Source: a virus. From it: a stretch of DNA of 64,000 bases. A program made the translations under genes and the position numbers. Below are positions 4,597 to 25,032 of this stretch, one piece after another; positions within the stretch are counted from its first letter, which is position 1; every line of letters begins with the position of its first letter. The stretch is taken from the UHGV virus genome UHGV-0242533, one strand, 5' to 3'. The notes beneath the pieces were generated by a model. That model did not search any database. It saw only the letters and a list, made by a program, of their open reading frames with translations, and was not told the DNA's origin.

Positions 4597-4832
4597 TATG
4601 AAACATCTCCTGCACTATTGATAGCAGCTTTTATGACCTCTTTTAAGCTACCAACCATTTTATACTTTTGATAACAATCTTCGCGTTTCTTATTCTCATG
4701 AGGTTCGGTTTGAACTATCTCGGTCATGAGTCTTTCTTTCAATGCCTCTAATGCTGCGTCAAGACTGCCGTTAAGATTGAGAGCCGCCAAAGCGGCGGCG
4801 TGCTCTTTATTGAATTGTTGTCTAATGTTCAT
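4596..4832 (-). CDS. Hypothetical protein (78 aa)
   Basis: ORF track; start overlaps upstream gene in operon context. Confidence 0.45.
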   Translation of the reverse strand: MNIRQQFNKEHAAALAALNLNGSLDAALEALKERLMTEIVQTEPHENKKREDCYQKYKMVGSLKEVIKAAINSAGDVS

Positions 4833-4841
4833 TCGACGTCC

Positions 4842-12871: not shown

Positions 12872-13442
12872 TTATTTTTGGCGGTGCTTGTTCATTGCTA
12901 CAGTGGTGCTATTCGTCGCTGATATGCTTTACTCTTACGTTCTTTAAGGCCTGAGTGTGCTGTTTTTGTTTGTGTTTGTCGTGGGCTTCATTTCTTTAAA
13001 TTATTTACTGATTGTTGCCGCTCTGGATATTCTTAATCTCAATACTAAAGGTTGATTGCTATGTGGTTTATTAAATTCTTAGGCTTAATCTTTCTTCTTT
13101 ATTGTGCCGTAGTCATGCCTATGGTCATAATTTATCTGATTCTATAATCCTTCCTGTAAGCCTCCTAGTGAGGCTTTTCTCGTTTCTAAGGTGATTGTAT
13201 GCCTTCCTCCCTTTTAGCTCGTTGTGATGCTTCTGAGAGCGTCAAATAGTGCTTTACAAGCCTGTTTTAGTGTGTTATTCGCGTGCGCGTTCCTTTATAC
13301 CTCCCTTCCCTGAAAAAATAATCGAAATAGGTGTTGCTTTCCTCTATCACTTCCACTATCATCTATTCATCGGTTAAGCAGTACCAAGTAGACAACCTGA
13401 TAAGTCGTACGAAAAACAGGTAATCGATAAGAAATAAAAAGA

Positions 13443-13470
13443 TTGACAAGGTATCCAAACGTAGTAAGAT
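13443..13470 (+). promoter_or_regulatory. Strong sigma70-like promoter P1
   Basis: A-rich UP-like tract, TTGACA, 16 nt spacer, TAAGAT. Confidence 0.6.
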
Positions 13471-13590
13471 GGGTATCAGAAACAAAGCAAGGAAACTTGC
13501 AAATGCTCTTTAAAAACTTATCATCTTGCCCTTTCGCAAAGATTCACGCGAGATAAGGGAAAGGAATTCAAAGAAGATGATAAAAAAGAG

Positions 13591-13618
13591 TTGACAAGGT
13601 AATCCAGTGAGTTATAAT
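13591..13618 (+). promoter_or_regulatory. Strong sigma70-like promoter P2
   Basis: A-rich tract, TTGACA, 16 nt spacer, TATAAT. Confidence 0.65.
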
Positions 13619-13766
13619 GGTTGCCAGTTAGCAGATACACAGCTAACATGTTCTTTAAAAATATGACCTGATTCACTAGCCTAGCCGCTTAGTAATCCTC
13701 AATCAAATATAGCTGATTGATATATCCTCCCAATAAAGGGAACGACGAAAAAGATTAAAAAGATGG

Positions 13767-13795
13767 TTGACAGGCACTGAGAGTTAGGGCATAAT
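13767..13795 (+). promoter_or_regulatory. Strong sigma70-like promoter P3
   Basis: A-rich tract, TTGACA, 17 nt spacer, CATAAT. Confidence 0.6.
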
Positions 13796-14716
13796 GAGCA
13801 CATTAGCTAAGGGAAACATTCCGAAGCGAAGCGAGACAACGGCTAACAGTTGCATAGCGTGAGCAAACACGCTGATAGATTTACCGCTCTTTAACAATAT
13901 AAACGTTCTTCTATATCGGTTGAATATGCTTGATGATAATAACCATCGGAAAGCATACCAGATAAAACGGTGTAAGACTCTCTAGACTATCAGAGGAAAC
14001 AGTCTTGCAATCCCTTACTGGAAACGTCACCACTGATAAATGGATTCACTGAGTGCACGCAAAGACTTAAGCTAATCGCCCACGGTTAAGGGTAGCGGCG
14101 GTCATCGCTAACAAGGCGCTACAGTGAAAGAAGTTAATCAGGGTAGACAAGTCCGACAAATTAACGCCCAATTGAGGGCGGCGGGGAGCGGTTAAAAAGT
14201 GGCAAATTGCTATTTAACAATAAGGTTTAGTGTGAACGTTTACGATGTGAACGGCTTGAGATTCGTCTTACGATGAAAGTACATAGTCGGTTTATGTAGT
14301 AAACTCGCTGAAAGATATCAAACGTCGGAATACTAGACGGTTAATGACTCTTTCGCAATAGTCTCCCGTAGTGGGCGATGGCTAGCGATTGAGAGTTAAT
14401 ACAAAAGGATAGGCGAGAGCGAAAGCAAAGTAGACGATATTGCCGACGGTTACAATAACGTAACTAATTAGAGTCGGACACACTGCCTTATTGTGATGAT
14501 TGATCATCGCTATCAGGTCGGCTTTGTTTATAGCGACTAATTAAAGATACCAGATGAAACATCACGGATAAGGAGGCGGCAAGGTTAACTCCTGATAAGA
14601 CCGCCTCACTTACCTGTAACTGCTCAATAATGAGTGGTTAGAGTTAAGTTAATAGTGACTTAAACAAGCTCATAGAGAGCGGGGCATAGTGCCCTAAACA
14701 TTAAAAGGTAAATATC

Positions 14717-15616
14717 ATGGCTAAGATCTTCACTCTGGTTAACGAATCTGGTTTTAACGCTCTGGCTAACAACATCCGCAGCAACAACGCAGCGATTAAG
14801 CAAGACGTTTCTAACTTCCTGTTAGGGCACTTGCAGCACTTCCGTAGCAACGGTAAAAAGCTGGACGTATTACAAGCGGCGGTTGACTTCCTGTTAACTG
14901 AACGCTTCCGCGATATGGATGTTATTGCTACCGCAATCACTTTCTTAACCCCTATCAAGTTTAACACTGATGCGGCGAATGGTCGTAAAAAGTGGATTAA
15001 TCTGGAAGGCGAAGCGAAAGCGAAAGAAGATGCGAAAGAAGCGCAAATTAAAACCAAAATGGAACAAAACCGTGCCCGCTGGTCAAACGCTTTCGAAAAC
15101 TTCGCGTTAGGTCGTGAAATTGAAGTTGATAACCCTAACTTCTACAAAGGTTGCAATGACAACGTAGCGGCACACCTGCAAATCCCGGCGAAAAACAAGG
15201 AAGACTTTAACCAAGATATTTACGCTTTGGTTGAACGCTTGAATGCAATCCGTATTGAAGCCAAATTACTGGCTGATGAGCGCAACGGCGCAACTAGCGA
15301 TAACACTATCGCCCTGAGTGAAGAAGTTGGGAAGGTTAAAAAGTCCTTTGATTCACTCATCAAGAAAGTCACGGCCTCAACGGTAGCGATCTCGGATGAT
15401 TATCTGATGAACGCATCAAGCAAGGAATTAGAATCACTCGATTCATACGCTGATGAAATGGAAAAGACTGTTGCAGCTATGCAGGAGAAGTTAGAAAGTC
15501 TGCGCGGTCGTATCTCTTCAACGGTTGCTACCCGTACCGAACAAGCGGCGAAAGCAGAAGAGGAAGAAGTATTGCGTAAAGCGGCTGAAATTATGGCGGC
15601 ACGTCAGGCGGCATAA
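14717..15616 (+). CDS. Early protein of unknown function (299 aa)
   Basis: First sizeable gene downstream of three tandem strong promoters and a roughly 0.9 kb leader; followed by a strong terminator. Confidence 0.6.
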   Translation: MAKIFTLVNESGFNALANNIRSNNAAIKQDVSNFLLGHLQHFRSNGKKLDVLQAAVDFLLTERFRDMDVIATAITFLTPIKFNTDAANGRKKWINLEGEAKAKEDAKEAQIKTKMEQNRARWSNAFENFALGREIEVDNPNFYKGCNDNVAAHLQIPAKNKEDFNQDIYALVERLNAIRIEAKLLADERNGATSDNTIALSEEVGKVKKSFDSLIKKVTASTVAISDDYLMNASSKELESLDSYADEMEKTVAAMQEKLESLRGRISSTVATRTEQAAKAEEEEVLRKAAEIMAARQAA

Positions 15617-15638
15617 GTAAGACAATTTGAATAAACAT

Positions 15639-15675
15639 AAGGCGCTATCTTAACGGGTAGCGCCTTTTCTTTTAT
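15639..15675 (+). terminator. Intrinsic terminator
   Basis: Hairpin aaggcgcta...tagcgcctt followed by a T-run. Confidence 0.7.
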
Positions 15676-15718
15676 CAGTGCATTGATTCAGTGCATTAAT
15701 CAAAGAATCTAATCAAAG

Positions 15719-15946
15719 GTGACGATCATGTTAATTACACATACCACGATTTATAGGAATCTTGTCAATGGTCAACATTACCGCCTATCTAAAAAGTATG
15801 GCGTTGAATGTAAATGTGTTATTACCGGTGAATGGTATCCGTCGCCAATGAAGATTGAAACGCTGGAACGTGAAGCGATCAGTTATATTATCACGCAAGA
15901 AACAACGTTAGGCCGTATCTTAAGAAAGCTGGGATTGAGAAAATGA
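15719..15946 (+). CDS. Hypothetical small protein (start GTG 15719 or ATG 15728)
   Basis: ORF track; RBS aaaggtga. Confidence 0.45.
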   Translation: MTIMLITHTTIYRNLVNGQHYRLSKKYGVECKCVITGEWYPSPMKIETLEREAISYIITQETTLGRILRKLGLRK

Positions 15947-16167
15947 TATTCAGTAGTAATTTTGGCAAGTGTCCTATTTGTGAGAAACATCGCAGCACGG
16001 GAAACCATCGCAAATGTAGTAAGATATTACAGCGCCAACGTGATAACAAACATTGGGATACTGTACACACTAACCAGCGTAAAGAAGAAGTTAGGAAAAT
16101 GGCTGTTAAAGCGTCATTTGCTCAATCAACCCGTATTGAACACATTCAAAGGTATCAAGCATCATGA
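15943..16167 (+). CDS. Small basic Cys/His-containing protein (74 aa)
   Basis: ATGA start/stop overlaps at both ends (translational coupling); CPICEKH...H motif. Confidence 0.5.
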   Translation: MIFSSNFGKCPICEKHRSTGNHRKCSKILQRQRDNKHWDTVHTNQRKEEVRKMAVKASFAQSTRIEHIQRYQAS

Positions 16168-16373
16168 TCACTAACATTTCAGAGTTTAAGAAAGCTCCCT
16201 CTCGTCTGTTAGGCCGTCGTGTAGTGTATCTTTATAGCAATAAAGGTAAATGTACAACCGGACGAATTACAACGGTGAGTAGTGCCAATAAGAAACTACT
16301 AAAATTATGTGTAACTATGGATGACGGTACAATCCTTCTACGTAGTTGGAAATCGTTTAGTTTACTTGATTAA
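16164..16373 (+). CDS. Hypothetical small protein (69 aa)
   Basis: ORF track; ATGA overlap with upstream gene. Confidence 0.45.
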   Translation: MITNISEFKKAPSRLLGRRVVYLYSNKGKCTTGRITTVSSANKKLLKLCVTMDDGTILLRSWKSFSLLD

Positions 16374-16442
16374 GTTATTTGTTCAAGCCTATCGCCTTGA
16401 TGGGCTTGCCCGATATAACTTATCACTGAAAGGAATAAGATT

Positions 16443-16886
16443 GTGGCTAAATCTAAAATCAGCATGAAGGGCGGGCGTTGTTTTGCTATCTCTGAACTAG
16501 AGAAAGAGAAACCGAAGGCAACTAATCACGTTAGTAAGCGTAGTTTAAAACGTCGTGCTGCAAAGGCTGAGGCTGAATCCCATGTTCCTTCCAGTGTGGC
16601 AAAGCGTGTAGGCCATCGTGTCCATCGGGCTGATGCGTTGTTGTTGGCTGATCATAAACGTTCTTTGTTAAAGAGCGGGGGAGCTAAAACAGAAGAGGAG
16701 AAGAAGTTAGAAATCTTCTGTAATGGTCGCACCCGTGGTAAACAGAAGTTTAAAGGTAGCACGAAAGACCCGCAGGCTTTCCCTAAGACAAGCCAGTGTG
16801 CACCTGATGTTTTCTACGCAGATAGTAAACACAAGTGGGGCGTTGAAAAATACATTGACCCCATCAAAGAGGCAAGGGTTAAGTAG
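16443..16886 (+). CDS. Highly basic protein (147 aa)
   Basis: Lys/Arg-rich; RBS aaaggaataag before GTG/ATG. Confidence 0.45.
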   Translation: MAKSKISMKGGRCFAISELEKEKPKATNHVSKRSLKRRAAKAEAESHVPSSVAKRVGHRVHRADALLLADHKRSLLKSGGAKTEEEKKLEIFCNGRTRGKQKFKGSTKDPQAFPKTSQCAPDVFYADSKHKWGVEKYIDPIKEARVK

Positions 16887-16900
16887 TAGGAATATAGCCC

Positions 16901-16921
16901 CCTCTTTTAGTACTATGACGC
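16901..16921 (+). promoter_or_regulatory. Conserved motif CCTCTTTTAGTACTATGACGC (copy 1)
   Basis: 17-mer core identical to a second copy at 23736-23756; partial third copy near 13206. Confidence 0.4.
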
Positions 16922-16966
16922 TCTTTCTGTAGCGTCGTGCCCTCTCCCCATTTGAAGCTTCCGCAT

Positions 16967-17020
16967 AGCCGCCTTTGAGCGGCTTTTTGCGTTACCGCCT
17001 CCTTAATTGGAGGCTTTTTT
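16967..17020 (+). terminator. Two tandem intrinsic terminators
   Basis: agccgc-loop-gcggct+TTTTT and gcctcc-loop-ggaggc+TTTTTT. Confidence 0.65.
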
Positions 17021-17046
17021 GTATCTATTATATAGGAAACCATGAA

Positions 17047-17769
17047 ATGAAAGCATTTGCATTGTCAGCTATTCTAGTTTTATCTGCCATTAGTGCCCCA
17101 TCCTTTGCTCATTCTGACAAATGCTCACACTCTAAACAGTGTGAAGTCCAGCAGGGGCCGAAAGGTGATAAAGGAGAACAGGGTATTCAAGGCGAACAAG
17201 GTCCGAAAGGTGACAAGGGTGATCGCGGAGAGCAGGGCTTAAAAGGTGATACTGGATCGGCTGGCATCAATGGTACTAATGGCATTGATGGTAAAGATGG
17301 CATTGATGGTAAAGATGGCGCTCAAGGTGAAAAAGGTGATTCTGGTGCAGATGGTAAGAAAGGCGAAACTGGCCTAACTGGTGCAGCAGGTTTGAATGGC
17401 GTTGACGGATTAAATGGCAAAAATGGTAAAGATGCAGATATGTCTGCCGTTAATGCTAACGCCAAATCTATCAAAGCTCTGGAACAATCCACCAACAAAC
17501 GTTTTGCTTCTTTGCAAAAACAAGTAGACCGTAACCGTGATCATGCCTCTGCTGGTATTTCTGGCGTGGCTGCAATGGCTAACATCCCGCAAGTAAGTCA
17601 AGGATCTGCTTTCTCTGTTGGTGCTGGGGTAGGTGCTTACGATGGTGAATCTGCTCTTGCTATTGGTGTTAGTGCTCGTTTCAATGAAAACGTAGTAACT
17701 AAAGCATCAGTGGCAATGACTTCAGAGAGTGACGCTGTTCTGGGCGCTGGTGTAAGTTACGAGTGGTAA
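17047..17769 (+). CDS. Collagen-like protein with signal peptide and YadA-like C-terminal anchor
   Basis: Start taken at internal ATG with RBS. Signal MKAFALSAILVLSAISAPSFA; long GXX collagen-like repeat run; C-terminus SAGISGVAAMANIPQV...SALAIGVS...VTKASVAMT...GAGVSYEW resembles the trimeric-autotransporter anchor. Confidence 0.6.
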   Translation: MKAFALSAILVLSAISAPSFAHSDKCSHSKQCEVQQGPKGDKGEQGIQGEQGPKGDKGDRGEQGLKGDTGSAGINGTNGIDGKDGIDGKDGAQGEKGDSGADGKKGETGLTGAAGLNGVDGLNGKNGKDADMSAVNANAKSIKALEQSTNKRFASLQKQVDRNRDHASAGISGVAAMANIPQVSQGSAFSVGAGVGAYDGESALAIGVSARFNENVVTKASVAMTSESDAVLGAGVSYEW

Positions 17770-17879
17770 GATAGTGCCTCTCCCGAAAGGGAGGGGTGTT
17801 TCTATAAGCATCTTTTCGAGGGTGTTTATTGAAACAACAAAACAGGAGGTAGCAAGTTCTGATAACAACGGCACAGCTA

Positions 17880-18269
17880 ATGTTGACATTGACTATTTAT
17901 TATGAGGCAGGGAATCAGCCAACCGCATGTAAGGCTTTAGTTGCGGATACCGTGATAAATAGAATGGCCCAACGAAAACTGACCGCTGAACAGGTGATAA
18001 GACAAAAGAACCAGTTTGAGTGGATTCCGGTACTATTAAAACAGGAGAAACCTTATAAACGTTATGTAAAGCTGATTCGTGATAAAAATCCGATGACTAA
18101 GCAAGCCATTGGAGAAAGCGAGCGGCTAGCTAAACGTGCCCTTAAGAAGAATTATGTTCCTCTGTACAGTGGGACTTACTTTCAGAGTAAGAGCGAAGGG
18201 GTGCCAAAATGGTATGCCAATCCTATGTATTGTGGTGATTTAGTGTTCGATAATAGCTCTAGGGAATAA
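17880..18269 (+). CDS. Putative SleB-like cell-wall hydrolase domain protein (129 aa)
   Basis: YYEAG...ALVADTVINR...QFEW resembles the SleB/Hydrolase_2 family; no good SD. Confidence 0.35.
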   Translation: MLTLTIYYEAGNQPTACKALVADTVINRMAQRKLTAEQVIRQKNQFEWIPVLLKQEKPYKRYVKLIRDKNPMTKQAIGESERLAKRALKKNYVPLYSGTYFQSKSEGVPKWYANPMYCGDLVFDNSSRE

Positions 18270-18468
18270 TCACTAGTGCCAGATTTGACAAACTAAATTC
18301 CTTTATAAACCAACCACTTAGTAAATTTATTGAAAAAGATGGTAGTATTCTGGGACTATGGGTAATGCTCTGTATATAGACCTTTGAAAATTTCTTAGAA
18401 AATAAGTTTACTAAATATAACTTACTTAAATAATATTACTTTTAATCTCTGATAAAGGGTAAAATGAT

Positions 18469-18765
18469 ATGACTTTAGAAGTATATAAATTCCTTTTTGT
18501 AAGCTGTTTAACTATCAGCGTTATAGGATTTATTGTTCTCAGAAACAAAGCAGCAAGCTGGGAGAGAATGTATAAATCTCTAGTACGAGTAGATGAGATG
18601 TATAATGAGAAGGTTAAAGCAACTCTTAACGATCTTATCATGCAAGTTGAAGACAGAAACAAGCGTCTTCAGAATCTCAACCATGAAGTATTACGCCTTG
18701 CTCGTGCTAATGAAGACTTGCGAGTGGCTATTGCTAAGCAGCAGGAGGTTAATAGTGAAGCATGA
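18469..18765 (+). CDS. Membrane/coiled-coil small protein (98 aa)
   Basis: N-terminal hydrophobic helix; RBS aaagggt. Confidence 0.5.
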   Translation: MTLEVYKFLFVSCLTISVIGFIVLRNKAASWERMYKSLVRVDEMYNEKVKATLNDLIMQVEDRNKRLQNLNHEVLRLARANEDLRVAIAKQQEVNSEA

Positions 18766-19012
18766 TATCAATACAGCACCTGTGGTTAAGCAGCTTAAAG
18801 ACCTAAGAGTGGGGGATGTTTTTGAAACTGTACCACATAAGAATAAGTTGTATCTTGTAGTAAAACTTGATTCTTCAACTGTTTATCAAGCCCAATGGAA
18901 ACCTGATAAAAAGGTAGTAGTAGATCTTACTTCAGATAAAGTAACAATGTTGGGAAAAGATACTGTTGTTCAGATAGTTGATAATGTTCGTCTTACTAAT
19001 AAGGTGGATTAA
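18755..19012 (+). CDS. Small protein of GDVF-motif family (GTG start with AGGAGG SD)
   Basis: Strong SD gcaggagg 6 nt before GTG; motif LRVGDVFETV...LYLVVKLD. Confidence 0.5.
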   Translation: MKHDINTAPVVKQLKDLRVGDVFETVPHKNKLYLVVKLDSSTVYQAQWKPDKKVVVDLTSDKVTMLGKDTVVQIVDNVRLTNKVD

Positions 19013-19014
19013 CA

Positions 19015-19248
19015 GTGAAAGTCAATATTAAGCATGATCATACAACGATTCGCTTAACTAACATGAAGCCTGGAGTTTTGTTTTCTTTCCGAGGCATTCT
19101 TTATATCAGAACAGATTCCACATCTGACTATCATGTTAAATGTGTTAATGTGGTATCCGGAACACTGACCGGTATCAACCGAGATGAAATCTGCCAAGTA
19201 CGCAGCGATCTCCACATAACTAACATAGAGACTAAAGATGAAGATTGA
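19015..19248 (+). CDS. Small protein, GDVF-family-like (77 aa)
   Basis: ORF track; motif PGVLFSF...YIRTD. Confidence 0.45.
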   Translation: MKVNIKHDHTTIRLTNMKPGVLFSFRGILYIRTDSTSDYHVKCVNVVSGTLTGINRDEICQVRSDLHITNIETKDED

Positions 19249-19489
19249 TCTTGAGTTTAAGAATCCAGAGCTGAAAGTGGGTGATTTGAAACTTGGAGAT
19301 GTATTCCAAGTGAAGGCAACATGTATTGACCATTACATGATTGTCCAGCTATACACACCACATGTGTCAGAGACTGATCTTCGGGAGGGTTGTGTGGTTC
19401 TTAGTTTACGTACTAATCAAGTGATGAAACTAGACTCAAACTTACCTGTTTCGGTTATCCATAATGTAGTAATTACCAATAAAGGTTAA
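19238..19489 (+). CDS. Small protein, GDVF family (83 aa)
   Basis: Motif LKLGDVFQVK. Confidence 0.45.
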   Translation: MKIDLEFKNPELKVGDLKLGDVFQVKATCIDHYMIVQLYTPHVSETDLREGCVVLSLRTNQVMKLDSNLPVSVIHNVVITNKG

Positions 19490-19491
19490 TT

Positions 19492-19812
19492 ATGTCAGTG
19501 TCCACTCGAATAACCTGTAAGCCTAAAGTGAGTATTCGTGCACAGCTTCAAAACTGTACAGGGGTAGTTCACTTGGAGTTTGAACACAGTGGAAGTCGGT
19601 ATAACGAAGGATTCACCGTAACCATCACCTCTGCATGGTTTAATTTGGTTCTCCTTCCTGATGAGGTATGCGCTGCAATTGGTGGTGTTAAGAAGGGTAG
19701 TTTAAACCTTATGTCAACCCCTGTAGGAAATGAATTGCTTTCTCTGGTTCAGAAAGGCGTATATAAAATGAACCTTATGTTAGATGCAATTACTGAAGAG
19801 AGTAAGGAGTGA
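19492..19812 (+). CDS. Hypothetical protein (106 aa)
   Basis: ORF track. Confidence 0.45.
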   Translation: MSVSTRITCKPKVSIRAQLQNCTGVVHLEFEHSGSRYNEGFTVTITSAWFNLVLLPDEVCAAIGGVKKGSLNLMSTPVGNELLSLVQKGVYKMNLMLDAITEESKE

Positions 19813-19816
19813 TTAA

Positions 19817-20035
19817 GTGGAAATTAAAGTAGTTGATTATCCTAAATATGCAAATGCAGAAGACGTTAAAGGTGGTGATGTTTTCTCTTACGATAGACGT
19901 TTCTGGCTGATGTTAGAAGATAAAACTCCTGATGGTTTGTGTAAGGCCGCCGATCTGAACAGTGGTTCTGTTGAAGTCTTTGGTCTATCAACAACTGTTA
20001 TGCCACGTCCTGATCTGTGTTTATCCCAAAAGTAA
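19817..20035 (+). CDS. Small protein, GDVF family (72 aa)
   Basis: Motif VKGGDVFSYDRRFWLMLED. Confidence 0.45.
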   Translation: MEIKVVDYPKYANAEDVKGGDVFSYDRRFWLMLEDKTPDGLCKAADLNSGSVEVFGLSTTVMPRPDLCLSQK

Positions 20036-20042
20036 CACCGAC

Positions 20043-20148
20043 TTATAGCCCTTGTGTTTATCAGAGGGCTATGTGAGGGTGTTCCTCATTAACTTATTAA
20101 TTCAGGCATATGCCACACCGCTAGGGAGAGCTTGCTCGAACATCCGGT
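20043..20148 (+). ncRNA. Conserved structured non-coding element, copy A (hairpin plus GCTAGGGAGAG...CTCGAACATCCG)
   Basis: Hairpin tagccct...agggcta then tgtgag; downstream ccgctagggagagcttgctcgaacatccggtg. A homologous element lies at 24293-24407. Confidence 0.35.
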
Positions 20149-20388
20149 GTTAGACTAAAACCTGTTAATTTTCGAAAGACTTTCTGATATGTAGGGGTAC
20201 GTATCGGTTTGGGATTCAGGAGACTTCCTAGGGGTAGGGAGTCTTCACCAGTTGGAATAAAAGGTAGCTCTAGAACCTGAACTCTTAGGCAGAGAAGGTC
20301 GGCAATGAATAGGCTACCAAGAAATTGGTGGCCTTTGTTGTTTTAATTAAGGGACAGCTCTTACTTAAACTAACAAGAGGAAGCTCAA

Positions 20389-20565
20389 ATGTCTAAGCAA
20401 ACAATCAAGAATACACAAGCTGGTTACTCTTATGTTAACTCTCCTTGCTGTGGTGCTCGTGTTAATCTGGTTAAGGAAGAGGTTCGTATCGTTCAGCGTG
20501 GCGCTACTGTTGTTCGTTCATGCTGTGTCTGTGGTAATGATATTTTTATCAAAGGTAAAGTATGA
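20389..20565 (+). CDS. Small zinc-ribbon protein (58 aa; below ORF-track cutoff)
   Basis: RBS aagagg; translation contains CC...CC...C clusters. Confidence 0.4.
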   Translation: MSKQTIKNTQAGYSYVNSPCCGARVNLVKEEVRIVQRGATVVRSCCVCGNDIFIKGKV

Positions 20566-20813
20566 AAAACTTTCAAGCTGCACCAATAACTAAAGTGATC
20601 GAAGTTGATGGTGTGATGATGACTGTTCCTCTGAACACTCGTTACATCGCAATTGACAAGATGGGTTATGTATGGGCTTGGAAGATTAAGCCTAGCTATA
20701 ACGCATTGTTTGATGAGTTTGTTTGTACTGGTACTTACAGTCCTACATTCTTAGGTTTGTTTGGAGAGTTTGATGGTAAGTATAAAATCATCACACTCCC
20801 TGCTTGTGCTTGA
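20562..20813 (+). CDS. Hypothetical protein (83 aa)
   Basis: ORF track; ATGA overlap with upstream ORF. Confidence 0.45.
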   Translation: MKNFQAAPITKVIEVDGVMMTVPLNTRYIAIDKMGYVWAWKIKPSYNALFDEFVCTGTYSPTFLGLFGEFDGKYKIITLPACA

Positions 20814-20820
20814 GGTTAGC

Positions 20821-20985
20821 ATGTTAAAGTGGTTTAAACGTCTATTCCATCTGCATGATTGGGAGACAATAAAAGAAATTCGTTTACACATATACAATGA
20901 GATCGGTCAAATAGAAGACACAGGTACTCGTTATATACTTCGATGTAAAACATGTGGTCATATCACCAAGAGAGATATGATCTAA
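20821..20985 (+). CDS. Small Cys/His protein (internal ATG of ORF 20761..20985)
   Basis: MLKWFKR...CKTCGH motif. Confidence 0.35.
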   Translation: MLKWFKRLFHLHDWETIKEIRLHIYNEIGQIEDTGTRYILRCKTCGHITKRDMI

Positions 20986-21090
20986 ATAGCTCTGCGCCGT
21001 TAGCTCAATTGTATAGAGCAGTTTCCTTCTAAGAAATTGGTTGGAGGTTAGAATCCTCCACGGTGCGCCAAATTGAATGAGAGGTGTGTT

Positions 21091-21390
21091 ATGTCATGGG
21101 GTGGTGTAATATCCTTAATCTGTATCTTCCTTGTCTGCATAGCCCTTACAGGCTGCGTACATAGCCGTCCTGATGGATGGTGTGCAGTAGCAGTGGAAGG
21201 TGTTTGTGTTTCTCGCTGGCATAAAGGTGAGAAGGTTCCTTCTGGTGAAATAGATATGCGCTGGAATGAAGCAACCTGTTCTAATGCTAACCCCTCTGTC
21301 AACGAAGAGAAATCTACACCGGATAATGTTGTGATTGATACAGCGTTGTGGTGTGGTGGCTCTGTAACAACAACCGGTAAGGAGTGGTGA
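21091..21390 (+). CDS. Lipoprotein, paralog of 12174..12503
   Basis: Signal plus lipobox ...CIALTGC; shared RPxGWCA-EG-CV-RW--G-KVP-GEIDM----A-CSN motif with the 12174 protein. Confidence 0.55.
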   Translation: MSWGGVISLICIFLVCIALTGCVHSRPDGWCAVAVEGVCVSRWHKGEKVPSGEIDMRWNEATCSNANPSVNEEKSTPDNVVIDTALWCGGSVTTTGKEW

Positions 21391-21391
21391 T

Positions 21392-21589
21392 ATGAATTAC
21401 ACATCTACAAAGGTGCTAATTGATTCGATTAATAGCTCCTCAGAAGCTGTACAGGAGCGTTTAATACAAGATGTTAGCAATGACATTAAGTTCTTTGTTA
21501 AGAGCCGACTGTTAGGTTCTAAGGCTTATTACAGAGCTAAAGCAGAGCTTACAAAGAGGGTGTTTCTTTTACATGGTTTGGTATATTAA
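21392..21589 (+). CDS. Hypothetical protein (65 aa)
   Basis: ORF track. Confidence 0.4.
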   Translation: MNYTSTKVLIDSINSSSEAVQERLIQDVSNDIKFFVKSRLLGSKAYYRAKAELTKRVFLLHGLVY

Positions 21590-21598
21590 GGAACTTAT

Positions 21599-21820
21599 AT
21601 GAAACTAGACTCTAAGCAGTCACTTAAAACCGTTGAGCTGTCCACGCTGCCAAACGGAAGTATTTTTGGTCATGATAAACACTTCTGGATTAAAACAGAC
21701 ATCATAGACGATGGATATATCACCTGTGTCAATCTTTGGAACGGCTCAGTGGATGGCTATCGCCCTAGCACAAAGGTGGTACCTCAGCCCGATGCAAAGG
21801 CTATAGGTTTAGTTTACTAA
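21599..21820 (+). CDS. Small protein, GDVF-like family (73 aa)
   Basis: Motif LPNGSIFGHDKHFWIKTD. Confidence 0.45.
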   Translation: MKLDSKQSLKTVELSTLPNGSIFGHDKHFWIKTDIIDDGYITCVNLWNGSVDGYRPSTKVVPQPDAKAIGLVY

Positions 21821-21829
21821 GGAGCCTGT

Positions 21830-22003
21830 ATGAGTTGTTTTGGTGGCGGTGAAATAGACGACGATTATGACATGGAATCTAACGGCACATGTCCTGACTG
21901 TGGGTGCGAAACATTTGATGGAGTGTCAGTATATCCTACCTGTAGTTATTCACCAGTGATCTGTAAAACATGTGGAGATCAACCTTGTGATGAGTCTTGT
22001 TAG
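21830..22003 (+). CDS. Small Cys-rich protein (57 aa; below ORF-track cutoff)
   Basis: RBS aaggag; CPDCGC...C...CKTCGDQPCDESC. Confidence 0.4.
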   Translation: MSCFGGGEIDDDYDMESNGTCPDCGCETFDGVSVYPTCSYSPVICKTCGDQPCDESC

Positions 22004-22232
22004 TGTGTTAATAGCCTATCTGATAGGATCAGTAGTATCAGGTGTTCTGATTAAGATTATAGATGTTAAAGGAAATCAGTGTTTCCGAGGTTGGGATGGT
22101 GAGCCAGACCTTGGAAAGATAGCAGCTATGGTTTTCTTGTGGCCTATTATTGCTGTACTATTTATAGCACTCGTAGCATGGGCTGCTCTTTGGGATTTCA
22201 TCCTTCCTAACAAAAAGTATGAGGACTCATGA
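21972..22232 (+). CDS. Small membrane protein (likely start at internal ATG 21990)
   Basis: Two hydrophobic helices. Confidence 0.45.
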   Translation: MEINLVMSLVSVLIAYLIGSVVSGVLIKIIDVKGNQCFRGWDGEPDLGKIAAMVFLWPIIAVLFIALVAWAALWDFILPNKKYEDS

Positions 22233-22650
22233 CTAAAGAATTTTTAGAGTGGTTTGGTGATACCTTCAAAGAGTATCTATTCTCTCCAGAAGACTTTGAA
22301 GAACTGAAAACCTACACTTGGTTGGCTTGGAGAGATAGCCGACGAGAGATGAATAAGTAATATCGTGAAGGATTCTTACGAGAGTCCTTTGAGATAGGAC
22401 TTCAGATCTCCTATCAAACTAACATTCATGTAACTAGCCCATAAGGGCGTTACCCTTTAATAACCCAGCCCACTAAGGGGGCGGGAGTTTAGTGCTGGAT
22501 TAGCATAACGCTTATTCCTACAAAGGCAACCGATTGTTAGATCTTACATGCAATATTAATTAATAGGATAAGGGAGGATTCGTCCCCTCCCCCTATTTTA
22601 TTGAATCTTTATCTAAGCAAGTCTTATATAAATGTTTAATTGGAGGATGT

Positions 22651-22962
22651 ATGAAAGCACGAAGAACTATATGGACTCCGATGCAGATTGAAAATCTTCG
22701 GAGACTAATCAAAGAGTACTCGGTTCAAGAGGTTGCTCAGATTATGAATGTAACGGAGAATGCAGTTAACACAGCTTGCACTAAATTCGGGATATCAAGA
22801 GCTTCAATCCGAGTTAAATGGTCTGAAGAAGAAGACCAGTTCCTTATCCGTAATGCTGGGTTCATGTCTATTCAGAGAATGGCTGACATGCTCGGTAGAA
22901 GTTATGCTGCTGTACAGAACAGGGCATGTATGCACCTTAATATTAGCCTGAAACTTAAATAG
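22651..22962 (+). CDS. Putative DNA-binding protein with two tandem HTH-like repeats
   Basis: Internal duplication: W-T-P-MQIENL...VQEVAQIM and W-S-EEEDQFL...IQRMADML. Confidence 0.4.
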   Translation: MKARRTIWTPMQIENLRRLIKEYSVQEVAQIMNVTENAVNTACTKFGISRASIRVKWSEEEDQFLIRNAGFMSIQRMADMLGRSYAAVQNRACMHLNISLKLK

Positions 22963-22970
22963 GAATCAAG

Positions 22971-23201
22971 ATGAATTTTGAGCTAGTACCAAAAAGCAAA
23001 ACACCCTCCAAGACTTTTTCTGACTTGGAGAATGGAGATGTTTTTCGTTTTACTGGTGACAATGTGGTCCCTAAATTCTGGATAAAAACAGGGGAACATT
23101 CTGCAATGTGTGTTCGGAACTCTAAAGATATTTTCTTTCCGGTCCCTCTGTCCAATACTGTTGATCTGTTCGAATCTAAACTTATTATTCAGGGTAAATA
23201 G
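22971..23201 (+). CDS. Small protein, GDVF family (76 aa)
   Basis: Motif LENGDVFRF...FWIKTGEH. Confidence 0.45.
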   Translation: MNFELVPKSKTPSKTFSDLENGDVFRFTGDNVVPKFWIKTGEHSAMCVRNSKDIFFPVPLSNTVDLFESKLIIQGK

Positions 23202-23202
23202 T

Positions 23203-23598
23203 ATGAAGATTACTCACAAGAAAGAAGAAGTGACTACGGTTGATCTCAACTCACTTCCCAGCGGAACTGTGTTTAAGTTTCCTGACAATGCAACCCTGTA
23301 TGTCAAAGGGTCTGTGTCTGCAAGCCCAAACGTTACCATCAACTCTGACAGAAGCACCATTAATATTAAAGTTAAGCATAAGAAAGAGAACATCCTCAGG
23401 GTTATGGATTTATTCAGAGCCGACGTCTTTACTTTAAAACAGTGTCCAACTTCCCATACCTACATGCTAACGAACCCGAGCAATGGTCTTAAGCCCGCTG
23501 GGGCGGTTAATCTGGGAACTGGAGAACTTCGGACAATTGCTGGTGATATGGTTGTTGATGAGAAGTTTAGTAAAGTCGAAATGATCTTAACTCCTTAG
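23203..23598 (+). CDS. Protein with N-terminal GDVF-like module (start at internal ATG 23203)
   Basis: Motif LPSGTVFKFPDNATLYVKGS; start 2 nt after upstream stop. Confidence 0.45.
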   Translation: MKITHKKEEVTTVDLNSLPSGTVFKFPDNATLYVKGSVSASPNVTINSDRSTINIKVKHKKENILRVMDLFRADVFTLKQCPTSHTYMLTNPSNGLKPAGAVNLGTGELRTIAGDMVVDEKFSKVEMILTP

Positions 23599-23735
23599 GA
23601 AAACAAATGAGACTTAAAGCATATTCTTATGACGATATGATTAACCAAAAAGGCTTCGGTCAACGACAGCCTGACGGTTCAATTATCTGGTTCGTAAACG
23701 GACAGAAAAAGGTAGCTAAATAAGCCCTCTTCTCT

Positions 23736-23756
23736 CCTCCTTTTAGTACTATGACG
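23736..23756 (+). promoter_or_regulatory. Conserved motif CTCCTTTTAGTACTATGACGC (copy 2)
   Basis: Shares the identical 17-mer with 16901-16921. Confidence 0.4.
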
Positions 23757-23830
23757 CCTCTCTGTGGGCAGCCCAATTTGCGTAGGGAATTCCCTCTACG
23801 CAGCCATGACTTTTTTAAGGAATTTCCCCT

Positions 23831-24064
23831 ATGTCTAAAGTAAGTGCAATTGATGCAATCCGTCAACCGTTCCAGTTCCAATCCAAATCAACCCAAACCT
23901 TCAGCGAACCTAAGCAAATTCGCTTGGGTGGAACAGAGAAAACTGTGTTCGATCTGGCTAAAAACAAGAGCGTTACCGTAGTTGATGGTGGCACTCTGGT
24001 TAACGTTTCTCATCGCATCCGCACTGGCAAAACTTCCAAAGATCGTGCTAAGAAAGGCGAGTAA
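23831..24064 (+). CDS. Hypothetical protein (77 aa)
   Basis: ORF track; downstream of conserved motif. Confidence 0.5.
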   Translation: MSKVSAIDAIRQPFQFQSKSTQTFSEPKQIRLGGTEKTVFDLAKNKSVTVVDGGTLVNVSHRIRTGKTSKDRAKKGE

Positions 24065-24279
24065 TGATAACGCTTGTGTCGATCGTTCACAGAATACACT
24101 ATCGTCTAGACAAAGGTAAAACCTATAAGTGCAAGAGTAAGACAGGCAATAGATGCTCTGTAGAAAACAACTCTGGTCAATGGGTGGATGTACCTTGTTG
24201 TTGGTTCAGGAAAGATTTGACTAACAAAGAAATTGACGAAATCCTTAGTGATGGTTTTGTAAAATCAAGTGATTTTTAG
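24064..24279 (+). CDS. Hypothetical protein (71 aa)
   Basis: ORF track; overlapping start/stop. Confidence 0.45.
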   Translation: MITLVSIVHRIHYRLDKGKTYKCKSKTGNRCSVENNSGQWVDVPCCWFRKDLTNKEIDEILSDGFVKSSDF

Positions 24280-24292
24280 TTGTAGTAACGCC

Positions 24293-24407
24293 TATAGCCT
24301 TCTTCGGAGGGCTATGTGAGTTATTCTGACTCAACTAACCTAATCTTAATATATTTCCCGTATGGGGCCGATGCTAGGGAGAGGAACATTCCTCGAACAT
24401 CCGTCGG
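24293..24407 (+). ncRNA. Conserved structured non-coding element, copy B
   Basis: Hairpin tagccttc-ttcg-gagggcta then tgtgag; downstream gatgctagggagaggaacattcctcgaacatccgtcgg. Confidence 0.35.
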
Positions 24408-24669
24408 ATAGATATTTTAAGAGCAGGTTATCCACAGATATTGGGTAATATCTTTTTGTATTTAAAGCTTGACTCTTTTCGGAGAGTCCTTTTTTAAATT
24501 CAACGAGAGGAAATATGTCTAAATTAGATTTAAAACTGCTAGCAGCAGCGATAGTGATTTGTGCACTAGCACTGGTAACGCAGAGAACATCTGGATTTAT
24601 TCAGTGTTTCTTTTCTGGGCAATCCACTTATCAGTGGGTTATTGACGAGTGTAAACAACAGGAGTAAGT

Positions 24670-25032
24670 ATGAATACACGTCCCATCAAGGGCAACGTTA
24701 ATATTGAAACTCTGAACAAGGTTGCATCAAACCTCGGTGGAATGTCCAACGATGAGCTTGAGCAAGAACTTGCTTGGATTGCAAATGGTATCAAAGTTGC
24801 TAAAGGTAAGATTGCTCGTGAGCAAAGCAACATGAAAGCTCACAAGTATGTCATCCGTCATGCAAACATGTTACCAGAACGGGTTGTACATCTTGCCCGT
24901 AAAAGCTACGCAGATGCAAAGAAAGCTCTGGAAGAAGCTACTTTCCAGAAGCATCAATTTATGAACAACTATCGAAACTTCCGAGATATTCTCTATATCC
25001 GTAAATCGATTGAGTTAATTAAAAACCAATAG
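24670..25032 (+). CDS. Hypothetical protein (120 aa), first gene of enzyme cluster
   Basis: ORF track. Confidence 0.5.
   Translation: MNTRPIKGNVNIETLNKVASNLGGMSNDELEQELAWIANGIKVAKGKIAREQSNMKAHKYVIRHANMLPERVVHLARKSYADAKKALEEATFQKHQFMNNYRNFRDILYIRKSIELIKNQ

What the first reader, a model, noticed from the sequence alone, without database searches (positions are those of the whole stretch)
16901..23756. Near-identical 17-21 nt motif (CTYYTTTTAGTACTATGACGC) in two intergenic regions, with a partial third copy
Positions 16901-16921 and 23736-23756 share the identical core TTTTAGTACTATGACGC preceded by a CT-rich tract. A related cctcccttttag element lies at about 13206. Both full copies sit 70-150 nt upstream of genes (17047 and 23831) and are followed by hairpins. 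There is no sigma70-type -35 element, so this may be a promoter class for a modified or phage-directed polymerase, or a protein-binding or RNA-processing site.
Basis: seen in the sequence. Interest (0 to 1): 0.5.

Follow-up and report, generated by a model that had tools for sequence, protein, structure and literature searches.

The report
Conserved early-mRNA box-and-hairpin element
A short sequence that occurs twice between early genes of this phiEco32-like E. coli phage is real and conserved across the whole phage subfamily, but it looks like a signal in the early messenger RNA (an invariant 11-base box joined to a small hairpin, placed ahead of terminators) and not like a promoter for the phage sigma factor.

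Summary
The repeat is real. An exact 18-mer, CTTTTAGTACTATGACGC, lies at 16904-16921 and 23740-23757 on the + strand. The window is a phiEco32-like kuravirus, and both copies sit in the sigma70-transcribed early gene block.

In 27 loci from three genera (Kuravirus, Nieuwekanaalvirus, Suseptimavirus) the two syntenic sites keep an 11-mer, TACT(A/G)TGACGC. The flanks have been replaced. The GACGC end is the 5' arm of a 5-9 bp hairpin, supported by one co-varying pair and several G.U wobbles, so it acts in + strand RNA.

It is not the gp36 sigma promoter, whose published consensus is tAATGTAtA. It has no -35 element. Site 1 is followed by two to four intrinsic terminators before any gene.

My best reading, at about 0.3 confidence, is a factor-recognised RNA signal that controls read-through or termination at internal terminator clusters of the long early operon (nut-like). 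Rivals are a processing or stability site, a decayed terminator, a DNA-binding site, a promoter, and a mini-ORF start. No function is shown.

Side finding: each strong early promoter is followed by a hairpin and an rrn-type boxA. CGCTCTTTAACAA is in the window; in KBNP1711 the boxA-spacer matches the E. coli rrn one at 16 of 17 bases. This is conserved in all genera, and no searchable paper mentions it.

The parts
16898..16910 (+). Site 1: pyrimidine tract plus TTTTAG, directly 5' of the box. It starts 11 nt after the stop codon of the 147-aa gp120 homologue (ORF 16443-16886).
   Evidence: Three different upstream contexts in other genomes converge on this tract about 14 nt before the box.
16911..16921 (+). 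Site 1: invariant 11-mer box TACTATGACGC.
   Evidence: In the 25 distinct site sequences aligned, 9 of 11 positions are invariant. Position 5 is A or G. The last C is T only in the decayed KBNP1711/Bas89 copy.
16914..16939 (+). Site 1 hairpin: 5' arm TATGACGCT (16914-16922), loop CTTTCTGT (16923-16930), 3' arm AGCGTCGTG (16931-16939).
   Evidence: Fold (region z = -3.5). Hairpin table. Pair counts.
16967..16989 (+). Intrinsic terminator T1, AGCCGC-CTTTGA-GCGGCT followed by TTTTT. It is conserved after site 1 in all three genera.
16997..17020 (+). Intrinsic terminator T2, GCCTCC-TTAATT-GGAGGC followed by TTTTTT. It sits just upstream of the YadA-like moron gene (17047-17769).
   Evidence: Only this piece has matches in E. 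coli chromosomes.
23724..23746 (+). Site 2: pyrimidine tract GCCCTCTTCTCTCCTCC plus TTTTAG. It starts at the base after the stop codon of the 38-aa gp94 homologue (ORF 23607-23723).
23747..23757 (+). Site 2: invariant 11-mer box TACTATGACGC.
23753..23772 (+). Site 2 hairpin, weakened in this genome: GACGCCT (23753-23759), loop CTCTGT, GGGCAGC (23766-23772). Only 4-5 pairs remain here. Most kuraviruses have GGGCGGC, and WFI101126 has the fully paired GGGCGTC.
23779..23802 (+). Second hairpin, a near-perfect 24-bp palindrome TGCGTAGGGAATTCCCTCTACGCA, between site 2 and the gp93 homologue (start 23831). It is conserved in Kuravirus and Nieuwekanaalvirus.
13200..13245 (+). Site 3, a loosely related element: TGCCTTCCTCCCTTTTAG-CTCGTTGT-GATGCT-TCTGAG-AGCGTC. 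It lies just after terminator 13158-13176 and upstream of the early promoter cluster. The CT-tract plus TTTTAGCTCG is conserved in other genomes, but the TACTATGAC box is missing.

Best explanation
The motif is the sequence-constrained half of a small cis-acting RNA element in the long sigma70-driven early transcript of Gordonclarkvirinae phages. The element has three parts: a C/U-rich tract, an invariant single-stranded or 5'-arm box UACU(A/G)UGACGC, and a 5-9 bp stem-loop with a pyrimidine-rich loop of variable length. It is transcribed as part of the polycistronic early mRNA at two fixed intercistronic junctions, after the gp120 and gp94 homologues.

I infer that a trans-acting factor, phage or host, reads the box. 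I also infer that the element sets the fate of elongating RNA polymerase or of the transcript at the internal terminator clusters just downstream. In other words it is a nut-like read-through or attenuation control point that lets early transcription pass from one block of early genes to the next.

Shown here: the repeat, its conservation, its strand and position, the hairpin, the terminators, the absence of promoter features, and the boxA modules in the leader. Inferred: that it works as RNA, that a factor binds it, and that the output is read-through or termination.
For: (a) The repeat is not chance. It is found at the same two syntenic junctions in every genome examined from three genera, while the flanks differ.
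(b) It is always on the coding strand of the early genes. It has no antisense partner and no detectable relatives outside this subfamily.
(c) The hairpin is supported. 77.6% of cells pair, against 21-57% when the partner is slid. One pair switches U:A to C:G between contexts. An extra C:G pair appears in Suseptimavirus. G.U wobbles in TH38 and Bas88 would be A.C mismatches on the other strand. Loop length varies from 5 to 10 nt, which fits an RNA stem better than a dimeric DNA site.
(d) The 5' arm and box are far more constrained than the 3' arm, so the box is read as sequence and is not only a pairing partner.
(e) Site 1 sits at the head of a terminator cluster: T1 and T2 in the window, and three or four hairpin-plus-U runs within 300 nt in LAMP and ECBP2.
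(f) The only strong sigma70 early promoters predicted, here and in the SU10 analysis, are one upstream of the left operon and three in the spacer. About 40 kb of + strand genes therefore depend largely on read-through, apart from the gp36 middle promoters from about 40.5 kb onwards.
(g) The early leader carries rrn-type boxA modules, so this phage demonstrably invests in antitermination signals. rrn-type boxA acts on Rho-dependent terminators and not on intrinsic ones (PMC2724277). That leaves the intrinsic clusters needing another device.
Against: There are no transcript data for any kuravirus in the searchable literature.

Covariation rests on few independent events. Two of the five shuffle measures were no better than shuffled, and the genomes are closely related: gp120 is 97-98% identical across genera.

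The hairpin is not strictly kept. It is reduced to 4-5 pairs at site 2 of this very window, and both box and hairpin have decayed at site 1 of KBNP1711 and Bas89.

The loop is not conserved, unlike protein-binding boxB hairpins.

Site 1 lies downstream of the strong terminator at 15639-15666, so it cannot explain read-through there.

Site 2 in Kuravirus has no canonical terminator until 24471.

No candidate binding protein was identified. Pfam finds nothing in gp120, and its AlphaFold model was too poor to use (pLDDT 53).
Confidence: 0.3

Rival explanations
1. RNA processing or stability site. The box is cut by, or recruits, an endoribonuclease: RNase E next to a hairpin, or a phage-encoded enzyme. 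Alternatively the hairpin protects the 3' end of the upstream cistron, dividing the polycistronic early mRNA into segments with different lifetimes, as the RNase III sites do in T7 early mRNA.
For: It is intercistronic, strand-specific and transcribed. It has an A/U-containing single-stranded segment (UUUUAGUACUAU) next to a G+C hairpin. It lies directly after stop codons at most sites. Only two sites per genome would fit segmenting the operon.
Against: The stems are 5-9 bp, far too short for RNase III. As far as I recall the reported RNase E preference (R-N-cut-W-U-U), I could not fit it to the box. RNase E and 3'-protective hairpins do not need an invariant 11-mer. No nuclease gene is associated with the sites.
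Confidence: 0.2
2. A weak or decaying intrinsic terminator. The hairpin plus a U-run was the ancestral terminator at both junctions. In Kuravirus the U-run was lost or displaced by insertion of the better terminator T1, and the box is conserved simply as part of the stem and its approach.
For: In Nieuwekanaalvirus site 2 (AGCGTC-GTTTTTGCG) and in Suseptimavirus sites 1 and 2 (GAGCGTC-TTTGTGT; GGCGCTG-TTTTGG) the hairpin is followed directly by a U-run. The SU7 GenBank record annotates the site 1 hairpin as a terminator. The tail TTTTTGCGT(AG) is shared between T1 at site 1 and the hairpin tail at Nieuwekanaalvirus site 2.
Against: In the window and in most kuraviruses neither hairpin has a U-run; the tails are GTGCCCTCTCCCC and CCAATTTGCG. 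Yet the box is still invariant. A terminator does not explain six conserved bases 5' of the stem, nor the stronger constraint on the 5' arm than on the 3' arm.
Confidence: 0.17
3. A double-stranded DNA site for a phage or host protein, such as a regulator, roadblock, replication or nicking factor. One candidate is the early sigma-region-4-like HTH protein encoded at 22651-22962.
For: An invariant, non-palindromic 11-mer with fixed orientation. An early HTH protein is encoded between the two sites (Sigma70_r4_2, E = 1.7e-7). In Kuravirus TAGTACTA is an 8-bp palindrome (direct reading).
Against: The palindrome is not kept in the other genera (CAACTACTA, TAGCTACTA). The complementary arm with G.U wobbles and a variable spacer points to RNA. 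Nothing ties the HTH protein to the site.
Confidence: 0.1
4. A promoter without a -35 element. TACTAT would be the -10, used by sigma70 holoenzyme once gp79 has displaced sigma region 4, or with an unknown phage activator.
For: TACTAT keeps T-12, A-11 and T-7. gp79 displaces sigma region 4 and inhibition is incomplete (PMC12276001). No strong sigma70 promoter is predicted for the genes downstream of the terminator cluster.
Against: There is no -35, no TG extension and no conserved upstream block at -35 spacing; the hexamers there are AGGAAT and GCCCTC (direct reading). Site 1 is followed by 2-4 terminators. The predicted start is a pyrimidine inside the hairpin loop. There is no hairpin-boxA module, unlike all the real early promoters. 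It is not the gp36 consensus.
Confidence: 0.08
5. A translation start of a mini-ORF or leader peptide. The A/G-variable position is the first base of an ATG or GTG inside the box. The ORF reads MTLFL-stop at site 1. At site 2 it reads MTPLF... for 20-30 codons and ends at the ribosome-binding site or start codon of the next gene.
For: The only variable base inside the box keeps a start codon. The site 2 ORFs end within about 15 nt of the gp93 start in all three frames seen. The start codon sits at the base of the hairpin.
Against: No Shine-Dalgarno sequence. The frame and peptide are not conserved beyond 5-8 codons (indels in T-runs shift the frame). Spacing to the upstream stop codon is not fixed: it is 22-26 nt, or 0 nt where a 57-60 aa ORF ends in the TAG of TTTTAG. 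An A-to-G change is also neutral for the stem (A-U to G.U).
Confidence: 0.05

Closest known systems
Lambda nutR / tR1 region (boxA, spacer, boxB ahead of terminators)
   Same: A conserved linear box next to a short hairpin. Two near-identical copies per genome. Transcribed, co-oriented with the early genes, placed just after the stop codon of an early gene and ahead of terminators. The surrounding RNA is C-rich and G-poor.
   Different: The box is not boxA. Against YGCUCUUUA the sites score 8/9 at Kuravirus site 1 and 5-7/9 elsewhere, and the match starts inside the stem. The loop is variable and pyrimidine-rich, not a conserved GNRA-like loop. Site 1 lies 3 kb from the promoters and after one strong terminator. 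No N-like protein is known.
E. coli rrn antiterminator (boxB hairpin, boxA UGCUCUUUA, spacer ACAAUUUA)
   Same: The phage's own leader modules copy this almost exactly. rrn operons also carry a second, internal antiterminator, which is a precedent for internal sites in a long operon (from my own knowledge).
   Different: The motif under study shares at most CGCUCUUU with boxA, at site 1 only, and lacks the A-rich 3' half and the spacer.
RNase III processing sites between T7 early genes
   Same: Conserved intercistronic RNA structures in an early operon driven by three strong host-type promoters.
   Different: T7 sites are two-turn double-stranded hairpins with internal loops. Here the stems are 5-9 bp.
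Intrinsic (Rho-independent) terminators
   Same: A G+C hairpin after a stop codon. In two genera it is followed by a U-run, and the SU7 record annotates it as a terminator.
   Different: No U-run in the window or in most kuraviruses. An invariant sequence 5' of the stem is not a terminator feature.
PeSL (promoter-early stem-loop) elements of T4-type phages
   Same: A short conserved intergenic element with a -10-like hexamer and a stem-loop, sitting at the borders of variable early gene cassettes. Homology between genomes breaks next to the motif.
   Different: PeSLs contain a complete sigma70 early promoter. Here there is no -35, and the stem-loop overlaps the would-be start site. The EcoN5 rearrangements have their junctions outside the motif.

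Membership tests
gp36 (phiEco32 sigma) middle/late promoter | Single consensus element tAATGTAtA, 6-8 bp upstream of the start site | tested here: not met
   Consensus from PMC8948821, PMC4281155 and PMC12276001. The motif reads TAGTACTATGA. Exact TAATGTATA matches lie elsewhere in the window.
gp36 (phiEco32 sigma) middle/late promoter | Located upstream of middle or late genes (phiEco32 genes 6, 13, 26, 40, 58, 68) | tested here: not met
   The sites correspond to the phiEco32 gp120/gp119 and gp94/gp93 junctions, inside the early class of genes 69-128.
Sigma70 promoter | -35 hexamer resembling TTGACA, 16-18 bp upstream of the -10 | tested here: not met
   The scan finds no site there. The hexamers at that spacing are AGGAAT and GCCCTC (direct reading).
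Sigma70 promoter | -10 hexamer resembling TATAAT, or an extended TGn-10 | tested here: inconclusive
   TACTAT matches 4 of 6 positions, including T-12, A-11 and T-7. There is no TG at -15/-14: the bases are TA in one flavour and AA in the other.
Sigma70 promoter | A primary transcript start 6-8 nt downstream of the -10 | not testable with these tools
   No transcript data were found.
nut-type antitermination site (lambda/rrn) | boxA, YGCUCUU(U)A | tested here: inconclusive
   Consensus from PMC2724277. Kuravirus site 1 is CGCUCUUUC (8/9), Suseptimavirus site 1 is CGCUCUUCU (7/9), Nieuwekanaalvirus site 2 scores 6/9, and Kuravirus site 2 scores 5/9 without an indel. The boxA-like part is not the invariant part.
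nut-type antitermination site (lambda/rrn) | boxB hairpin with a conserved loop bound by an N-type protein | tested here: not met
   A hairpin is present, but the loops differ in length (5-10 nt) and in sequence.
nut-type antitermination site (lambda/rrn) | Lies in the transcript between the promoter and the terminators it overrides | tested here: inconclusive
   Met for T1/T2 at site 1. Not met for the terminator at 15639-15666, which lies upstream of site 1.
Intrinsic terminator | G+C-rich stem followed at once by a U-run | tested here: not met
   The window tails are GTGCCCTC and CCAATTTG, and the terminator scan does not list these hairpins. The feature is met in the Nieuwekanaalvirus and Suseptimavirus variants.
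RNase III site (T7 type) | About two turns of double-stranded RNA | tested here: not met
   The stems have 5-9 pairs.
Rfam families | A match to any curated covariance model | tested here: not met
   Only tRNA-Arg is found in 13000-24700, even at E up to 5.

The most novel reading that the evidence does not exclude
The box-hairpin is the recognition RNA of a so far unidentified antitermination or termination-control factor made early in infection. Together with the rrn-type boxA modules behind every early promoter, it would give this virulent podophage a lambda-like, two-tier control of its early transcription. In that scheme Nus-factor modification suppresses Rho, and a separate phage-specific signal opens the intrinsic terminator clusters that split the early operon into immediate and delayed blocks.
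Probability: 0.18. Interest if true: 0.65.

Novelty: new variant of a known kind. Interest (0 to 1): 0.42.

Why it matters
The published picture of phiEco32 transcription has sigma70 early promoters, gp79 shut-off and gp36 middle/late promoters. It does not explain how polymerase starting at one promoter cluster crosses many intrinsic terminators to express about 60 early genes.

A conserved RNA signal at the head of the terminator clusters gives concrete, mutable sequences for testing whether antitermination or attenuation is part of the programme. So do the boxA modules found in passing. The authors of the 7-11 study raised that question for the related phage 7-11 (PMC8948821).

If the element turns out to be only a decayed terminator or a processing site, it is an ordinary piece of phage operon punctuation.

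Tried and rejected
- **Other motif families checked by eye:** RpoS, RpoE, RpoH, sigma54, LexA, IHF, the RfaH ops element (GGCGGTAGCGTG), integron attC R-boxes, IS200/IS605 ends, the phiX174 origin, and a tRNA-like minihelix with CCA. Each gave at best partial matches at one site or in one genus, so all were rejected. These comparisons rest on my memory of the consensus sequences.
- **7-11 late-promoter motif** GTAAtg-N16-aCTA: not present at either site.
- **Recombination or module-boundary idea.** Homology between genomes does break near the motif. But the EcoN5 tandem duplication and the relocation of its left operon have junctions outside the motif.
- **Fixed spacing to the upstream stop codon.** Rejected, because 57-60 aa ORFs end in the TAG of TTTTAG in five genomes.
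- **Attenuator-type alternative pairing with T1.** The 3' arm of the motif hairpin is not complementary to the 5' arm of T1 (direct reading).
- **Rho-loading (rut) character.** Both sites are among the more C-over-G-rich 78-nt windows (z = 3.2 and 2.7) but are not unique.
- **Concerted variation of the flank at both sites of a genome**, as a sign of a phage-specific factor. Weakened by mixed genomes (EP335, Bas89).
- **Wider searches.** IMG/VR scans by DNA pattern and by gp120 returned only known kuravirus-like contigs. E. coli genomes matched only T2.
- **gp120.** Pfam finds nothing in gp120, PDB matches are weak, and the AlphaFold model without an alignment is too poor to use (pLDDT 53).
- **Literature access.** The two primary phiEco32 papers (PMC2587145, PMC3275717) are not held. 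I cannot exclude that they mention the motif or the boxA elements.

Full report
**What the window is**

Megablast of 16400-24400 finds 110 phage records, nearly all Escherichia phages of the phiEco32 group; EcP-vB is 96.5% identical and phiEco32 95%. The window runs in reverse-complement orientation relative to NC_010324. The two motif copies map to the phiEco32 gp120/gp119 and gp94/gp93 junctions. These junctions lie in the block of small + strand genes that the literature assigns to the early class. That class is transcribed by host sigma70 holoenzyme from one promoter upstream of the left operon and three promoters in a long spacer (PMC4281155 text and Table S2; PMC8948821).

**The observation**

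- TTTTAGTACTATGACGC is exact at 16905-16921 and 23741-23757. At up to 3 mismatches, 0.12 matches are expected by chance.
- Read directly, the identity is 18 nt, at 16904-16921 and 23740-23757.
- The partial copy at 13206-13217 exists.
- The distances to the next genes and the following hairpins are as described.

**Comparative anatomy**

I fetched the early regions of 20 annotated phage records from all three genera of Gordonclarkvirinae, plus IMG/VR contigs.

- Every genome has the element at the same two junctions.
- Across 25 distinct site sequences, nine positions of TACT(A/G)TGACGC never change. Position 5 is A or G. The last base changes only in one decayed copy.
- The flanks are not conserved as a whole. 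Upstream there are two 'flavours': a CT-tract ending TTTTAG, or CTGTACC...TCAAC. Three different upstream genes are found at site 1. Downstream the loops and tails differ. The 11-mer is therefore the only block shared by four otherwise different contexts.
- The element was not found outside the subfamily: not in IMG/VR, not in 50,697 phage records beyond Gordonclarkvirinae, not in E. coli genomes, and not in Rfam.
- No searchable paper contains the sequence.

**The hairpin**

GACGC, with one or two more bases, pairs with a downstream GCGTC-type arm across a pyrimidine-rich loop of 5-10 nt.

- On a register-preserving alignment, 77.6% of cells form standard pairs, against 21-57% when the partner is slid.
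- The covariation score exceeds all 500 shuffles.
- Only two of the ten pairs show any cell changed on both sides. One of them switches clearly between U:A and C:G, and that switch mostly separates site 1 from site 2.
- Two of the five shuffle measures are no better than shuffled. Support is therefore real but thin.
- G.U wobbles in TH38 (AGTGTC) and Bas88 (GGGCGTC), and the A-U to G.U change at the variable box position, fit + strand RNA and not duplex DNA.
- The 3' arm tolerates damage. Kuravirus site 2 usually has an A x G mismatch. The window's own site 2 has a second one (GGGCAGC). KBNP1711 and Bas89 have lost the site 1 hairpin altogether.
- The box is thus more constrained than the pairing, which suggests the box is read as sequence.

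**Context**

- In most genomes the box starts 22-26 nt after the stop codon of the upstream gene. In five genomes a 57-60 aa ORF ends in the TAG of TTTTAG, so the spacing is not a requirement.
- Site 1 is always followed by a conserved intrinsic terminator, T1 (GCCGCC-TTTGAG-CGGC then TTTTT). The window adds T2 and a moron encoding a YadA-like, collagen-repeat adhesin. LAMP and ECBP2 have three or four hairpin-plus-U runs within 300 nt.
- In Nieuwekanaalvirus and Suseptimavirus the motif hairpin itself carries a U-run, and the SU7 record calls it a terminator. In Kuravirus it does not.
- No strong sigma70 promoter is predicted downstream of the cluster.

**Why it is not a promoter**

- The gp36 consensus is tAATGTAtA, and its matches in the window lie elsewhere.
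- There is no -35 element, no TG extension and no shared sequence at -35 spacing.
- The predicted start falls in the hairpin loop.
- Terminators follow site 1.
- The hairpin-boxA module that follows every genuine early promoter is absent.

**Side finding that bears on the mechanism**

I was checking whether CGCTCTTT, which is part of site 1, resembles boxA. This showed that each strong early promoter in the spacer is followed by a short hairpin and an rrn-type boxA:

| Position | Sequence |
|---|---|
| 13504 | TGCTCTTTAAAAA |
| 13649 | TGTTCTTTAAAAA |
| 13885 | CGCTCTTTAACAA |
| 14208 | TGCTATTTAACAA |

- Five matches with at most one mismatch occur in 64 kb, and four of them lie here on the + strand. 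My estimate of the chance expectation is about 0.08.
- The modules number four to six per genome in the ten other loci examined from the three genera. Their hairpin stems co-vary, and two of the hairpin types have GNRA-type loops.
- In KBNP1711 the sequence CGCTCTTTAACAATTTA matches the E. coli rrn boxA-spacer ugcucuuuaacaauuua at 16 of 17 positions (PMC2724277).
- According to that paper, rrn-type signals suppress Rho-dependent terminators but not intrinsic ones. No paper in the library pairs 'phiEco32' with 'boxA'.
- So the phage uses Nus-factor antitermination on its early operon, and the intrinsic terminator clusters still need explaining.
- The motif itself is not a boxA. The boxA-like part scores 8/9 at only one type of site and is not the invariant part.

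**Interpretation**

The element is best described as a transcribed, strand-specific box-plus-hairpin at two internal junctions of the early operon. The box is probably read by a factor.

Its position at the head of the terminator clusters, in a phage that invests heavily in antitermination signals and has no internal early promoters, makes control of read-through or termination the most economical function. I put this at about 0.3. The rivals are:

| Rival | Confidence |
|---|---|
| Processing or stability site | 0.2 |
| Weak or decaying terminator | 0.17 |
| DNA-binding site | 0.1 |
| -35-less promoter | 0.08 |
| Start of a mini-ORF (MTLFL-stop at site 1; 20-30 codons ending at the gp93 start at site 2) | 0.05 |

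None of these can be settled without transcript-end mapping. The remaining probability covers functions I have not thought of, or no function at all.

**Limits**

- The genomes are closely related; gp120 is 97-98% identical between genera. Conservation alone is therefore weak evidence. The argument rests on the contrast between the box and its replaced flanks, and on the paralogous comparison of the two sites.
- I sampled 20 of about 110 available phage records.
- The two primary phiEco32 papers could not be read.

Noticed in passing
window 13443-14220 (+); also L001 2830-3819, L009 2271-3406, L010 1483-2617, L011 2512-3623 and other loci: Each strong sigma70 early promoter in the 1.9-kb spacer is followed by a short hairpin and an rrn/lambda-type boxA. 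The hairpins include GCAAG-GAAA-CTTGC (13487-13500) and AGCGTG-AGCAAA-CACGCT (13856-13873). The boxA elements are TGCTCTTTAAAAA (13504), TGTTCTTTAAAAA (13649), CGCTCTTTAACAA (13885) and TGCTATTTAACAA (14208). There are 4-6 modules per genome in all three genera. KBNP1711 has CGCTCTTTAACAATTTA, which matches the E. coli rrn boxA-spacer at 16 of 17 positions. This suggests Nus-factor antitermination of the early operon. No held paper pairs phiEco32 with boxA.
   Followed up: partly
window 20046-20155 and 24291-24413 (+): Two long non-coding intergenic regions of the early block share about 110 nt of homologous sequence. Each has a hairpin TAGCC(C)-loop-GGGCTA followed by TGTGAG, then GCTAGGGAGAG...CTCGAACATCCG, which has a T-arm-like TCGAA. 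This may be a repeated small RNA or a degenerate tRNA-like gene. ARAGORN and Rfam find only the tRNA-Arg(TCT) at 20994-21070.
   Followed up: partly
window 23779-23802 (+): A near-perfect 24-bp palindrome, TGCGTAGGGAATTCCCTCTACGCA with core GGGAATTCCC, lies between site 2 and the gp93 homologue. It is conserved in Kuravirus and Nieuwekanaalvirus. It could be an operator for a dimeric protein or a stable RNA hairpin. RNA folding predicts that the upstream CU tract pairs with the AAGGA ribosome-binding site of gp93.
   Followed up: partly
window 17047-17769 (+): The gene after site 1 encodes a 240-aa protein with collagen triple-helix repeats and a YadA-like membrane anchor. The protein's N-terminus (MKAFALSAILVLSAISAPSFA, read) looks like a signal peptide; no predictor was run. 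The gene is bracketed by terminators (16997-17014 and 17777-17794) and absent from several relatives. It looks like a moron picked up from a bacterial adhesin gene. Terminator T2 is the only part of the region with matches in E. coli chromosomes.
   Followed up: partly
window 22651-22962 (+): The early 103-aa protein annotated elsewhere as a 'D5-like transcriptional regulator' carries a sigma70 region-4-type HTH (Pfam Sigma70_r4_2, E = 1.7e-7, above the curated cut-off). This is curious in a phage whose gp79 displaces sigma region 4 from RNA polymerase (PMC12276001).
   Followed up: no
L009 about 2215-2225 (KBNP1711); the same in L010, L015 and L012: In several genomes a gp36-type promoter consensus (TAATGTATA) sits about 45 nt upstream of the first hairpin-boxA module of the spacer. 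The phage sigma factor may therefore also drive transcription into the early leader. The window lacks this copy.
   Followed up: no
L008 (EcoN5) 4575-6700 and 13122-14646: EcoN5 has the 'left operon' (homologues of phiEco32 gp128 to gp125) relocated to just after terminator T1 of site 1. It also has a 1.5-kb tandem duplication of the gp93-gp89 block, giving a third copy of the motif. Neither junction lies in the motif.
   Followed up: partly
window 56462-56478 (-): A 14-of-17 match to the motif (TTCTAGTACTGTGACGG) lies inside the 1450-aa late ORF, in the sense orientation. It is preceded by a CT-rich stretch and followed by a GGAAG-AAAAT-CTTCC hairpin. It is probably chance: 0.12 matches are expected at up to 3 mismatches.
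   Followed up: no
window 13800-14716 (+): About 900 nt of non-coding leader lie between the last early promoter and the first early gene (the gp124 homologue, starting at 14717). It contains several G+C hairpins and two of the boxA elements. This is unusually long for a phage early leader.
   Followed up: no
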